Below are positions 1,336 through 6,719 of a stretch of DNA of 64,000 nt, piece after piece. The notes under the pieces are model-generated. The model made no database searches and was not told the origin of the DNA. It was given only the letters and a program-made list of their open reading frames with translations. Position 1 is the first letter of the stretch. Each line of letters opens with the position of its first letter. The stretch is from a virus. Taxonomy: Duplodnaviria; Heunggongvirae; Uroviricota; Caudoviricetes. Location of the stretch: the IMG/VR virus record IMGVR_UViG_2925897562_000001; one strand, given 5' to 3'. The translations under genes and the position numbers were made by a program.

Positions 1336-1491
1336 TTACCTTTCAGATTCGTAGGCTGTGAAGACAGTGACCTCCGTCTGGCCGGTTCGGATTCGTACCT
1401 CGCAGAGGTCTTTCCTCGTTACCAGTGCCGTCACAATGACGGTTAAACAGATGACGATCAGAGCGATTAACATCGCTTTTTGCTGCTTCAT
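1336..1491 (-). CDS. hok: Hok/Gef-family membrane toxin (51 aa), type I toxin-antitoxin
   Basis: Hand translation gives MKQQKAMLIALIVICLTVIVTALVTRKDLCEVRIRTGQTEVTVFTAYESER; matches the Hok/Gef/RelF family signature (single TM helix, TRKxLCE, FxAYES); below the 60-aa ORF-track threshold. Confidence 0.8.
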   Translation of the reverse strand: MKQQKAMLIALIVICLTVIVTALVTRKDLCEVRIRTGQTEVTVFTAYESER

Positions 1492-1549
1492 AGCCTGCTT
1501 CTCCTTGACCTTTTGGTCGGTAAGAGGCTAATCTACGTATGCTAAGCAT
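1343..1549 (-). CDS. mok-like overlapping reading frame (68 aa) for translational coupling to hok
   Basis: ORF in a different frame covering almost all of hok, as mok does in hok/sok loci. Confidence 0.4.
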   Translation of the reverse strand: MLSIRRLASYRPKGQGEAGYEAAKSDVNRSDRHLFNRHCDGTGNEERPLRGTNPNRPDGGHCLHSLRI

Positions 1550-1968
1550 AGATATGGCCTCAGATTAATGTTAAGCGTCTTGCAGGACGCGTAATGTTAT
1601 CTGGGGCTTTCTTCTATCTGCTTTTCGGGTAATGCCTGAAGCAGATAGCCTCAAGCACCCGCAACGATTGTATCAATGTCTGGCTTTTTTTCTATAGAAA
1701 TCACCTGGAAGGGTGAATATCCACATCAGAAGAAATGTTGCAGCAAACATGATCCCTAATGGCCAGACCGCGCCAAAGAAAATCCATACTAAGATCTCCT
1801 CTGCTCGTTCTTTGCGGTCGATATCGACAAGCATTTTTCGGCTGATCATGTATACACAGAAGCCAATACAAACATATCCTGCAAAAGCGATCGCTAACTG
1901 TAAAAAATCAGATTGCATCTCCGACCTCAAACTGAAAACGCCAGGTGACTCCAGATTAGAGCAATCTA

Positions 1969-5069: not shown

Positions 5070-5119
5070 AGTTACGGCCTCACAATCAGGTTTAACAACC
5101 TGCTACCCGCTGCTAAACA

Positions 5120-5200
5120 GGTGGCAGGACGTGACGGGGTTAGCAGACTGGCGATTGTGAAACCAGCAGGCCGAAGCCTCCCCATCACGCCCCACCATAA
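5120..5200 (-). ncRNA. c4: c4-like antisense repressor RNA of immI (approximate position)
   Basis: Transcript-sense motif GUUUAGCAGC occurs twice (plus-strand 5109-5118 and 5278-5287) with a complementary CUGCUAAC element between them (5139-5146), as expected for c4 a'/b' pairing; exact ends not determinable. Confidence 0.3.
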
Positions 5201-5383
5201 TTTGGGCGTAACGCGGTTTTACGGACACAAAAATACCGCAATATCGGATATCTGCGGCTGTCCGCACAATCATTCAGGCTGCTAAACCCGGTCGCAGAAT
5301 TTGCTACGACGGCGGAACTATAAGCCTGAACGATTAAAAGGTCAATATGATGCGAAAAGATAGCATTCGCGACTTAAAAATAC

Positions 5384-5400
5384 AAATTTATTAGAGCATT
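5384..5400. promoter_or_regulatory. C1 operator (Op51-like) at immI promoter
   Basis: AAATTTATTAGAGCATT, 16 of 17 to C1 operator consensus. Confidence 0.6.
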
Positions 5401-5496
5401 GCATGCTTAATAAATACACAATTGGATCTAATAACCTCTTTTTTTTAAAGGCGAAAATATGTACCCTAAATGAGTTATAAGGCAGGTGAGGTTATA

Positions 5497-6144
5497 ATGA
5501 GAAAACTATTACTACCGTTATTATTTATGGCTGGGACTGTTAATGCAGCATCAAGCGTAAAGGAGATTTGTACCGATTATACGAAATACCTTGGGCACGT
5601 TTACGGCTTTGCTGTCAGTCAAGACGAATCCATGCGCAAGAAGTTACTGTCAGATATGAAACGCCTTAAACTTTCTGAAGCGATGGTGCAGCAAGAACTG
5701 TATAAAGTCGCAACCAACGAAAATGCTAAATATCAATATTCTCGCCTATTAAATCCCGACGCAAACGAGATCAATCGAAGCTCTTTCGATTATATGGTAA
5801 AGGCATGCGAAACCGCTCCTGATTTTGCTATCCCTAGCTGGGGGGTGCTGGTGGCGAGCAATGCCGTTAATAAAGAAGATGTTGGAAGAAATGGCATTGA
5901 CTCAATCAGAAATGCCCCAGGAATGCGCCATCAAAACGTTCAGGGTACGCTTGAAGAGCGGGCCAGGGGGCCGGGTACAAACTCCCCAATGGGAAACCTC
6001 TCTCCAGAAGAATTGCAAGAGTATAACCAACGGATGGAGCAGTATGAGAAAGCGGCACGCGAAAAAATGGAACAACAAAAGAACGGCTCACTTAATACCT
6101 TCCAGCAAGGTTTAAAAGCGCTTAATTTACCCTATGAATGGTAA
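5497..6144 (+). CDS. secreted (signal-peptide) protein carrying a Sit-like peptide motif; candidate superinfection-exclusion (Sim-like) protein
   Basis: ATG at 5497 with GGTGAGG RBS; N-terminal MRKLLLPLLFMAGTVNAASS signal peptide; GMRHQNVQGTLEERARGPG resembles Sit GMRREVVQGTLEERARGKG. Confidence 0.6.
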   Translation: MRKLLLPLLFMAGTVNAASSVKEICTDYTKYLGHVYGFAVSQDESMRKKLLSDMKRLKLSEAMVQQELYKVATNENAKYQYSRLLNPDANEINRSSFDYMVKACETAPDFAIPSWGVLVASNAVNKEDVGRNGIDSIRNAPGMRHQNVQGTLEERARGPGTNSPMGNLSPEELQEYNQRMEQYEKAAREKMEQQKNGSLNTFQQGLKALNLPYEW

Positions 6145-6208: not shown

Positions 6209-6685
6209 ATGCGCATCAAACGATTTTTTCTAATTCTTGCTTTGCTTACTCCTTTTTCGTCAATGGCAAATGTAAGCAAATGGTCAACCGGCGAGACTCA
6301 TGGTGTTCGTTCTTATGCTGTTTCCAGCAAAGATAATTATACGCTTACATTTGAGTGCGATGTTGGATTTAATAATACGGATCCCAATCAAGTAGGAACA
6401 CGACTACTCACTCTCATGAAAACAGAACCTGGCGGTGAGTCATTTGATGCTAAAAAAGAACAAATAACGCTGAAAGTTGGTGATGATGAATATCCTATCA
6501 GTTCTATCGGTTCCTCTGTGGGTGATAGTTACTGGTATGGTTTTTGGTCAGATACCCCTGATATGGAAGTTAAAACATTCGATGCATACGTAGACGGAAA
6601 AAAAATCGCAACATTTACGCTACGTAAGGCCGCAGAGCTTTTCAACGCGGCACCTGAAGATGGCTGCCTGAAGCGCGCAAAATGA
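6209..6685 (+). CDS. secreted protein (signal peptide MRIKRFFLILALLTPFSSMA)
   Basis: AAGGAG RBS 9 nt before the ATG at 6209; hydrophobic N-terminus with a plausible signal peptidase site. Confidence 0.6.
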   Translation: MRIKRFFLILALLTPFSSMANVSKWSTGETHGVRSYAVSSKDNYTLTFECDVGFNNTDPNQVGTRLLTLMKTEPGGESFDAKKEQITLKVGDDEYPISSIGSSVGDSYWYGFWSDTPDMEVKTFDAYVDGKKIATFTLRKAAELFNAAPEDGCLKRAK

Positions 6686-6719
6686 CCTGTCACAAATGAC
6701 TACTCGTAGAATCGGTTAA

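What the first reader, a model, noticed from the sequence alone, without database searches (positions are those of the whole stretch)
5497..6144. Secreted protein copies a repeated peptide motif from the injection protein Sit (possible exclusion by mimicry)
The signal-peptide protein heading the morphogenesis operon contains NGIDSIRNAPGMRHQNVQGTLEERARGPGT. Sit carries two related segments near its C-terminal third: MNGRGMRREVVQGTLEERARGKGT (about 11728-11800) and GIDGLFDKLRNSPGMRKNNAPEP (about 11890-11960). The motif is therefore duplicated inside Sit and copied into a periplasm-targeted protein. P1 sim proteins block superinfection at DNA entry, so a periplasmic decoy of the Sit segment that engages the host entry machinery is a concrete, testable mechanism. 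The second signal-peptide protein (6209-6685) may belong to the same module.
Basis: partly seen in the sequence, partly recalled or inferred. Interest (0 to 1): 0.5.

Follow-up and report, generated by a model that had tools for sequence, protein, structure and literature searches.

The report
Secreted sim-locus protein carrying a tape-measure motif
A P1-like phage encodes, at the spot where phage P1 keeps its superinfection-exclusion genes, an exported protein that displays on a flexible tail the best-conserved short peptide of the phage's own DNA-injection (tape-measure) protein, which makes a decoy mechanism for blocking entry of rival phages plausible and directly testable but not yet shown.

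Summary
The 215-aa ORF at 5497-6144 shares GMRxxxVQGTLEERARGxGT with Sit (BLASTP E=5e-9; shuffle z=11; Sit-family PHROG hit E=9e-8). Of 16 identical residues in the 20-residue core, 10 use different codons, so this is an old similarity kept at the peptide level, not a recent DNA copy.

The gene lies at P1's sim (superimmunity) locus, between the C4/icd/ant operon and the late promoter LPsit. P1's 52-aa "simA" is its truncated 5' stump. It is not part of the late operon proper.

The family occurs in P1-like phage-plasmids of Escherichia, Salmonella and Klebsiella. It has a signal peptide, a confidently predicted helical domain with two invariant cysteines, then a predicted-flexible linker. In that linker the motif is an island of conservation (61-78% identity against 0-20% in the segment before it).

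A profile of the motif finds only Sit-like and SimA-like proteins among 1.84 billion representatives.

Exclusion by mimicry fits this anatomy but is untested. The known excluder SimC lacks the motif, about half the family keeps only the GMRHQ half, and motif tracking of the cognate Sit is weak. The second secreted protein (YfjT family) is a conserved partner.

The parts
5117..5202 (-). C4 antisense RNA of the divergent immI (c4-icd-ant) operon. This is context that fixes the locus; the a1/b1 targets lie at 5271-5323 (-).
   Evidence: Rfam RF01695 at 69.6 bits and RF03163 at 55.5 bits; P1 annotation.
5384..5400 (.). C1 repressor operator (P1 Oc4/Op51 equivalent), AAATTTATTAGAGCATT, lying between the divergent c4 and simA-like genes.
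   Evidence: Aligns to the P1 operator annotated at L001 4085-4101.
5406..5432 (+). Position equivalent to P1's predicted sigma-70 promoter PsimA. It is weak, and the consensus scan did not find it.
   Evidence: P1 annotation transferred through a 95.5%-identical alignment; the consensus scan was negative.
5497..6144 (+). Full-length SimA-like gene (215 aa; phrog_3933). The alternative upstream ATG at 5470 has no ribosome-binding site.
   Evidence: ORF list; Shine-Dalgarno GGTGAGG before 5497; phrog_3933 E=5e-137; 28 homologue clusters; 266 plasmid records in PLSDB, 83 of them with the full-length gene.
5497..5547 (+). Sec-type signal peptide MRKLLLPLLFMAGTVNA, with predicted cleavage VNA|ASS and no lipobox.
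   Evidence: Read from the sequence; N16, A17 and S19 are invariant in the family alignment.
5548..5886 (+). Helical N-terminal domain (residues 18-130) with invariant Cys25 and Cys104. No match to any solved fold.
5890..5979 (+). Sit-like linear motif NGIDSIRNAPGMRHQNVQGTLEERARGPGT (core 5920-5979) in a predicted-flexible linker.
   Evidence: for significance; pLDDT 50-65; motif identity of 61-78% against 0-20% in the segment just before it, across homologues down to 42% overall identity.
6004..6120 (+). C-terminal long helix (residues 170-208). This module is variable: it is absent from the 163-, 176- and 179-aa alleles and replaced by Cys-rich modules in others.
6209..6685 (+). Second secreted protein (158 aa; phrog_3429; homologues carry Pfam PF27224 YfjT). 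It has a signal peptide and invariant Cys50/Cys153, and is a conserved partner of the SimA-like gene.
   Evidence: No Pfam or NCBIfam hit in the local libraries; no relative in the PDB.
6694..6712 (+). Late promoter LPsit (-22 box and -10), beginning 9 nt after the stop of the second secreted protein. It marks the start of the pmgC-tub-pmgB-sit late operon and the right edge of the variable cassette.
   Evidence: Identical to P1 LPsit in the alignment.
8910..12302 (+). sit, the tape-measure / injection transglycosylase (1130 aa, 95% identical to P1 Sit).
   Evidence: PMC9024508.
11151..11480 (+). SLT lytic transglycosylase domain of Sit.
   Evidence: PF01464 E=4.6e-27, residues 748-857; confidently folded in AlphaFold2.
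11700..11795 (+). Sit motif copy 1, VNDLVNKFMNGRGMRREVVQGTLEERARGKGT (core 11736-11795). It is present in every Sit examined and lies in a region predicted to be non-globular.
   Evidence: invariant G204 M205 R206 G212 R217 A218 G220 G222 in A6 numbering; pLDDT about 30.
11901..11969 (+). Sit partial copy 2, GIDGLFDKLRNSPGMRKNNAPEP, inside an insertion of about 60 aa specific to the Escherichia lineage.

Best explanation
The ORF is the intact form of P1's simA. I propose it is expressed from the prophage, independently of the late promoter, together with the downstream YfjT-family protein, and that both are exported by Sec into the periplasm. There the protein folds into a disulfide-stabilised helical domain. 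From that domain hangs a flexible tail carrying the same short linear motif that lies just after the SLT domain in the C-terminal, periplasm-exposed part of the tape-measure protein Sit.

When another P1-like phage contracts its tail and releases Sit into the periplasm, the resident protein would interfere with the step that depends on this motif. It could either occupy the motif's binding partner (decoy) or join the incoming Sit through the motif (dominant-negative). Either way the DNA would not cross the inner membrane, which is superinfection exclusion.

What is shown: the homology of the motif, its selective conservation, its restriction to these two protein families, the locus, the export signal, and the predicted flexible display.

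What is inferred: expression in lysogens, periplasmic residence, an exclusion phenotype, and competition as the mechanism.

My estimates: the similarity is real and functionally constrained, 0.95; the protein is periplasmic, 0.85; it is a superinfection or entry-interference factor, about 0.55; it works through the shared motif, about 0.35-0.4.
For: Locus:
- Window 5300-5636 is 95.5% identical to the P1 simA region, and similarity to P1 resumes only at LPsit/pmgC.
- simC at this locus is the P1 superinfection-exclusion gene (PMC2409434, citing Maillou & Dreiseikelmann 1990).
- The sim genes are non-essential for plaque formation (PMC10695390), and this is a known hypervariable region of P1-like phage-plasmids (PMC9603915).
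- Every protein encoded by every cassette seen at this site has a signal peptide or a membrane segment.

Motif:
- Significance: E=5e-9, z=11, PHROG E=9e-8.
- Ten of 16 identical residues are encoded by different codons.
- It is an island of conservation. In the 42%-identical homologue P0155, the motif is 74% identical, the N-domain 39% and the flanks 0-8%.
- Three allele classes (163, 176 and 179 aa) end just after the motif, keeping it while losing the C-terminal helix.
- The motif is invariant in Sit even across the two different SLT alleles.
- A motif profile finds only Sit-like and SimA-like proteins in 1.84e9 representatives.

Structure and precedent:
- In both proteins the motif lies in low-confidence, non-globular regions, as expected of a short linear motif.
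- There is precedent for exclusion proteins that act on the tape measure: T4 Imm binds the tape measure (bioRxiv 10.64898/2026.03.06.709160), and TP-J34 Ltp and HK97 gp15 are escaped by tape-measure changes (PMC10883804).
Against: - No phenotype is known for this gene. All database copies are annotated 'hypothetical' or 'simA domain protein'.
- SimC, the proven P1 excluder, has no Sit-like segment, and no other sim-locus protein does either.
- About half of the family clusters (for example L045 and L049-L051) keep only N(A/S)(P/R)GMR(H/Q)Q and replace the VQGTLEERARG half with Cys-rich modules, although their Sit keeps the whole motif.
- The motif does not clearly track the cognate Sit. An exact permutation test over 8 lineages gives p=0.06 (identity) and p=0.024 (BLOSUM), confounded by shared phylogeny. 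The window protein is closer to foreign Sit than to its own.
- The promoter is only predicted and weak.
- Neither the partner of the motif nor its role in Sit is known. Sit is unresolved in the P1 cryo-EM maps (PMC12810830).
Confidence: 0.4

Rival explanations
1. Shared-ligand anchoring without exclusion. The motif is a small binding module for a common periplasmic structure such as peptidoglycan, a membrane surface or a chaperone. The secreted protein uses it for some other lysogenic-conversion role, and any effect on incoming Sit is incidental.
For: The motif is a conserved linear element in flexible regions of both proteins. The N-domain and the YfjT-family partner are conserved regardless of whether the extended motif is present. 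YfjT-family proteins also occur outside P1-like phages, judging by the family name, which comes from an E. coli K-12 prophage gene (own knowledge).
Against: The motif is found nowhere else in 1.84e9 representative proteins, which is unexpected for a general envelope-binding module. The gene sits at a locus dedicated to superimmunity in P1.
Confidence: 0.2
2. The helical domain is a receptor for Sit's motif, with its own motif as a pseudo-ligand. The N-domain binds the motif of incoming Sit and neutralises it. The protein's own copy occupies that site in cis, or links molecules in trans, until displaced. This is still exclusion, but by capture rather than decoy.
For: It shares all the locus and conservation evidence of the main explanation. 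The N-domain is the most widely conserved part and is kept even in alleles lacking the extended motif, which fits better if the domain is the active part.
Against: AlphaFold2 does not dock the motif on the domain with any confidence (pLDDT 50-65). There is no evidence of binding.
Confidence: 0.15
3. Transglycosylase inhibitor. The motif is a regulatory segment that contacts Sit's SLT domain, and the periplasmic copy inhibits the incoming enzyme so the tail cannot cross the cell wall.
For: The motif lies about 85 residues after the SLT domain and stays invariant while the SLT domain itself comes in two alleles. The 163-aa allele is linked to the alternative SLT allele in 10 of 12 loci, while all 23 loci of the 215-aa allele with a readable Sit have the standard one.
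Against: AlphaFold2 of Sit residues 740-1130 gives a confident SLT domain but leaves the motif undocked at pLDDT about 30. There is no similarity to known lysozyme or transglycosylase inhibitors in Pfam, NCBIfam, PADLOC or PDB searches. The allele linkage may simply reflect lineage, since the genes are only 3 kb apart.
Confidence: 0.1
4. Recombination relic. The segment entered the gene by illegitimate or short-homology recombination with sit in a mosaic hot spot and has no function of its own.
For: The locus is highly mosaic. The P1 breakpoint lies inside the gene, one allele class ends 2 aa after the motif, remnants of other modules are seen, and about half the family has swapped the distal half of the motif.
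Against: Synonymous sites are heavily diverged while the peptide is kept. The motif is better conserved than the folded domain in a 42%-identical relative. It is retained in truncated alleles.
Confidence: 0.1

Closest known systems
Phage P1 sim (superimmunity) locus: simA-simB-simC, with SimC as the processed exclusion protein
   Same: Same chromosomal position, between the C1 operator/c4 promoters and LPsit. The first 45 residues are identical to P1 SimA. The products are exported, and the locus is non-essential and hypervariable (PMC9603915; PMC10695390; PMC2409434).
   Different: There is no simB or simC here. The gene is the full-length form of which P1 simA is a stump. SimC has no Sit-like motif. 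No exclusion phenotype has been shown for this cassette.
T4 Imm, a superinfection-exclusion protein that binds the tape measure gp29
   Same: A contractile-tail phage in which exclusion acts on the tape-measure protein at the DNA-translocation step (bioRxiv 10.64898/2026.03.06.709160).
   Different: Imm is a polytopic inner-membrane protein that binds a helical-bundle domain of the tape measure and shares no sequence with it. The protein here is a soluble exported protein carrying a copy of a tape-measure peptide.
TP-J34 Ltp and HK97 gp15, prophage exclusion proteins overcome by tape-measure changes
   Same: Prophage-encoded envelope proteins that block DNA injection after adsorption, with the tape measure as the genetic target (PMC10883804 and references therein).
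   Different: Ltp is a lipoprotein of a Gram-positive host and gp15 is a predicted inner-membrane protein. Neither is reported to resemble its target. Here there is no lipobox and no membrane helix beyond the signal peptide.
E. coli K-12 CP4-57 prophage protein YfjT (Pfam PF27224)
   Same: Homologues of the downstream 158-aa secreted protein carry this Pfam family in precomputed annotations.
   Different: The function of YfjT is unknown (no informative paper found). The local Pfam copy gave no hit for the window protein itself.

Membership tests
SimA family ('simA domain protein', phrog_3933) | Sequence homology to P1 SimA and to family members | tested here: met
   The first 45 residues are identical to P1 SimA; phrog_3933 E=5e-137 over the full length; 28 homologue clusters, several named 'simA domain protein'.
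SimA family ('simA domain protein', phrog_3933) | Position at the sim locus, between c4/Op51 and LPsit/pmgC | tested here: met
   the same position holds in all loci where both flanks are present.
P1 Sim exclusion protein (SimC) | Sequence homology to SimC | tested here: not met
   There is no simC homologue in the window. The SimA-like and SimC proteins fall in different PHROGs.
P1 Sim exclusion protein (SimC) | Cleavable signal peptide / periplasmic processing | tested here: inconclusive
   The sequence shows a canonical n-h-c region with VNA|A, and cysteines are conserved. No signal-peptide predictor or experiment was available.
P1 Sim exclusion protein (SimC) | Blocks P1 infection after adsorption when expressed | not testable with these tools
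   This needs plating and DNA-entry assays.
Ltp-type exclusion lipoproteins | Lipobox with +1 Cys after the signal peptide | tested here: not met
   The mature N-terminus is predicted as ASSVKE, and the first Cys is residue 25.
Imm/gp15/SieA-type membrane exclusion proteins | Transmembrane helices in the mature protein | tested here: not met
   The only hydrophobic stretch is the signal peptide. The model is a soluble helical domain plus a linker and a long helix.
PTP-like phytase (PF14566) | Score above the Pfam gathering threshold, and a CX5R catalytic loop | tested here: not met
   26.4 bits against a cut-off of 27, covering profile positions 47-132 only. The Cys104 context is CETAPDF, with no arginine at +6 (from the sequence).
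Known anti-phage defence proteins (PADLOC-DB) | Match to any PADLOC model | tested here: not met
   No hits for SimA-like, the YfjT-like protein, SimB or SimC.

The most novel reading that the evidence does not exclude
A temperate phage protects its lysogen with a periplasmic decoy: a small folded scaffold displaying a short linear motif shared with the phage's own tape-measure protein. The decoy saturates the still-unknown partner that Sit needs in order to carry DNA across the inner membrane. If so, the motif marks the functional entry determinant of P1-family tape measures and gives a handle (peptide pull-down, escape mutants) for finding the host entry factor. It would also be the first exclusion protein that works by mimicking the injection protein rather than by binding it or the receptor. 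The extra partial copy of the motif in Escherichia-lineage Sit could then be a counter-move.
Probability: 0.3. Interest if true: 0.75.

Novelty: new variant of a known kind. Interest (0 to 1): 0.55.

Why it matters
How P1 DNA crosses the periplasm and inner membrane is unknown, and so is how the sim locus blocks that step. Sit is unresolved in the cryo-EM maps, and no host entry factor is known.

This finding picks out one roughly 20-residue element of Sit. It is invariant across the family, lies in a flexible region, and is duplicated in an exported protein at the exclusion locus. That gives a precise target for mutagenesis.

It also re-reads a textbook annotation: P1 simA is the stump of a larger gene that about a third of P1-like plasmids with a match in PLSDB still carry intact.

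If the decoy idea holds, it adds a new logic to superinfection exclusion and a general search strategy: look for exported prophage proteins that share short motifs with ejection or tape-measure proteins.

Tried and rejected
- **Pfam PTP-like phytase.** The hit is just under threshold and there is no catalytic CX5R loop, so I rejected it.
- **PADLOC and NCBIfam.** Nothing found.
- **Does the Sit motif dock on the SLT domain?** AlphaFold2 of Sit residues 740-1130 leaves everything after the SLT domain at pLDDT below 50. This neither supports nor excludes docking.
- **Does the motif co-vary with the cognate Sit?** The signal was only marginal and is confounded by phylogeny.
- **Do other sim-locus proteins copy virion proteins?** I tested SimB, SimC, the YfjT-like protein, the 394-aa SH3 protein and the other C-terminal modules of SimA-like alleles. 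No hits.
- **Recent DNA transfer between sit and the gene.** Rejected: 74% nucleotide identity in the core, with differences mostly synonymous, and only patchy identity over the copy-2 region.
- **BLASTP between the two Sit copies.** It found nothing; only the restricted shuffle test supports the duplication.
- **Pairing the most divergent SimA-like (P0155) with a Sit.** Its contigs are about 1 kb, and the diverged Sit P0152 lies on a contig with no sim insert.
- **Literature.** The P1 genome paper (PMC523184) is not held. My statements on Sim acting after adsorption rest on secondary citation and my own knowledge.

Full report
**What the window is.** The region matches P1-family phage-plasmids (genus Punavirus). 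The segment 5300-6800 is 96.8% identical to phage vB_EcoM-Ro157c2YLVW over its whole length. It matches P1 itself only at its two ends: 5300-5636 (95.5%, the simA region) and from about 6690 (LPsit/pmgC). P1's annotation then fixes the map. To the left, on the minus strand, lie the C4 antisense RNA (Rfam, 5117-5202), its a1/b1 targets, icd and ant. The C1 operator Op51 equivalent is at 5384-5400. To the right come pmgC, tub, pmgB, sit (95% identical to P1 Sit), pmgA and bplA. The finding therefore lies exactly at the P1 sim (superimmunity) locus.

The ORF 5497-6144 encodes 215 aa. The start at 5497 has a GGTGAGG ribosome-binding site, while the in-frame ATG at 5470, used for P1 simA, has none. 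Residues 132-161 align with Sit residues 931-962.
- BLASTP gives 23/47 identities, E=5e-9, and the same against P1 Sit.
- The Smith-Waterman score is 101 against 39.9 +/- 5.5 for shuffles.
- It is the only non-self hit in the six-frame window (E=1.8e-7).
- The Sit-family PHROG profile hits at E=9e-8.
- The partial second copy in Sit (998-1020) is weaker. BLASTP is silent, and restricted shuffle tests give p about 1e-4 and 3e-5. It sits in an insertion of about 60 aa found only in Escherichia-lineage Sit.

**It is not a recent copy.** In the 20-codon core, 16 residues are identical. Six of them share the codon and 10 differ synonymously. The peptide has been kept in both genes while silent sites drifted.

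**What the gene is.** P1's annotated 52-aa SimA is identical to this protein for 45 residues and then breaks off where simB-simC begin. P1 simA is therefore the stump of this gene. The intact family (phrog_3933; 'simA domain protein') occurs in P1-like elements of Escherichia, Shigella, Salmonella and Klebsiella. There are 28 clusters at 90% identity, 69 viral contigs, and 266 PLSDB plasmids, of which 83 carry the gene at full length. All are unannotated.

The alignment shows four parts:
- a signal peptide with a conserved ANA|(A/S)S site;
- a domain of about 110 residues with invariant Cys25 and Cys104;
- a nearly invariant N(A/S)(P/R)GMR(H/Q)Q;
- a variable C-terminus.

About half the clusters continue after GMRHQ with the Sit-like xV(Q/E)G(T/S)L(E/M)(E/S)RA(R/Y)GxG. 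The others switch to Cys-rich helical-hairpin modules.

AlphaFold2 gives a confident helical domain (pLDDT above 90, residues 20-130), a low-confidence linker holding the motif, and a long C-terminal helix. No solved fold resembles the domain.

**The motif is the constrained part of the tail.** Against seven homologues, the motif (residues 139-161) is 61-78% identical, the ten residues before it 0-20%, and the C-terminus 8-59%. In P0155, which is 42% identical overall, the motif is 74%, the folded domain 39% and the flanks 0-8%. Three allele classes end shortly after the motif, keeping it while discarding the helix: 163 aa (...ERARGPGVAP*), 179 aa and 176 aa.

**The motif in Sit.** Every Sit examined has it, in Escherichia, Salmonella, Klebsiella and a deeply diverged metagenomic relative. 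It stays invariant even though the adjacent SLT domain exists as two divergent alleles. AlphaFold2 folds the SLT domain confidently and leaves the rest of the C-terminus, motif included, unstructured. Sit is the P1 tape measure with a C-terminal SLT domain, and it is not resolved in the cryo-EM maps (PMC9024508, PMC12810830).

**The motif is private to these two families.** A 13-sequence profile searched against 1.84 billion representative proteins returns 10 proteins at E up to 0.001. They are Sit-like tape measures, SimA-like proteins and fragments of them, plus one low-complexity false positive.

**The locus as a cassette site.** Between the conserved flanks I found five arrangements:
- SimA-like 215 aa plus a YfjT-family protein (the window type, 24 loci);
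- SimA-like 163 aa plus a YfjT-like protein plus a 325-394-aa protein with one membrane segment and a C-terminal SH3_3 domain;
- SimA-like 212 aa plus a SimC homologue;
- the simA stump plus simB plus simC (the P1 type);
- Salmonella and Klebsiella versions of SimA-like plus a YfjT-like protein.

All products carry export or membrane signals. The late promoter LPsit is conserved 9 nt after that gene's stop, so the module lies upstream of the late operon rather than within it.

**Interpretation.** The anatomy fits a prophage-encoded exclusion factor aimed at the Sit-dependent entry step: an exported scaffold, a flexibly displayed and selectively conserved copy of a tape-measure peptide, a position at a superimmunity locus, and high allelic turnover. 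It could act as a decoy for the motif's partner, or through direct association with incoming Sit. Exclusion proteins that act on tape measures are known: T4 Imm binds gp29 (bioRxiv 10.64898/2026.03.06.709160), and TP-J34 Ltp and HK97 gp15 are escaped by tape-measure changes (PMC10883804). I found none reported to share sequence with its target.

**Caveats.**
- SimC, the proven P1 excluder, has no Sit-like segment.
- Half the family lacks the distal half of the motif although their Sit keeps it.
- Tracking of the cognate Sit is marginal (p=0.06/0.024, confounded by phylogeny), and the window motif is nearer to foreign Sit than to its own.
- The promoter is only predicted.
- The motif's role in Sit is unknown.

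I therefore put about 0.55 on an entry-interference role and about 0.35-0.4 on the motif being its mechanism. The rivals are capture by the helical domain with the motif as pseudo-ligand, inhibition of the SLT domain, a shared envelope-binding module, and a functionless recombination relic.

**Verdict.** This is a genuine, statistically solid and previously unremarked similarity with a sharpened context. It gives a good experimental lead for an old open question, how P1-family DNA entry and sim exclusion work, but it carries no functional proof. If it functions as proposed it would be a new variant of a known kind (tape-measure-directed superinfection exclusion). Interest 0.55.

Noticed in passing
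window 5470-5636; L001 4171-4329: P1's annotated simA (52 aa) is the truncated 5' end of the full-length 215-aa gene. Its annotated ATG lacks a ribosome-binding site, whereas the MRK start 27 nt downstream has a strong one. The P1 annotation therefore probably has the wrong start as well as describing a gene remnant.
   Followed up: yes
L037 10001-12413 (also L030, L032-L042): An alternative sim cassette. It holds a SimA-like protein that stops 2 residues after the motif, a YfjT-like protein, and a 325-394-aa protein with one membrane segment and a C-terminal bacterial SH3 domain whose N-terminal half is highly variable.
   Followed up: partly
Sit SLT region, window about 11151-11480, and loci L030-L042: Sit carries two divergent SLT-domain alleles. 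The alternative allele accompanies the 163-aa sim cassette in 10 of 12 loci, and the standard allele accompanies all 23 loci of the 215-aa cassette with a readable Sit. This may be lineage linkage or co-selection. A paper on D6-like prophages also noted divergence near simB and in sit (PMC6799933).
   Followed up: partly
window 11805-11990 (Sit residues about 966-1025): An insertion in Sit of about 60 aa, specific to the Escherichia lineage, holds the partial second motif copy. Its start (VASN...GID...LRNSPGMR) aligns better with the SimA-like protein (VASN...GID..IRNAPGMR) than with Sit copy 1, so part of it might derive from the sim-locus gene. DNA identity is too low to decide.
   Followed up: partly
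L046 10001-11596: One lineage has a full-length SimA-like protein (212 aa, degenerate motif GMRTQNTQGALERRALG) directly followed by a SimC homologue. So SimA-like and SimC are not mutually exclusive.
   Followed up: no
window 1486-1660 (-): A hok/sok-type sok antitoxin RNA (Rfam RF01794, 114.9 bits) lies a few kb left of the ant genes, in a region that differs from P1's kilA-repL arrangement.
   Followed up: no
L085 6851-7469: In a deeply diverged P1-like metagenomic phage, bplB is followed directly by pmgC. There is no immI or sim insert at this site, although its Sit keeps the motif (NAPGMRHQVATGSMADRAYG).
   Followed up: partly
L077 10708-11121: A Salmonella lineage has an extra 117-aa ORF between the SimA-like and YfjT-like genes. 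Just upstream of it is a 23-residue remnant (78% identity) of the Cys-rich C-terminal module seen in other SimA-like alleles, a trace of module shuffling.
   Followed up: no
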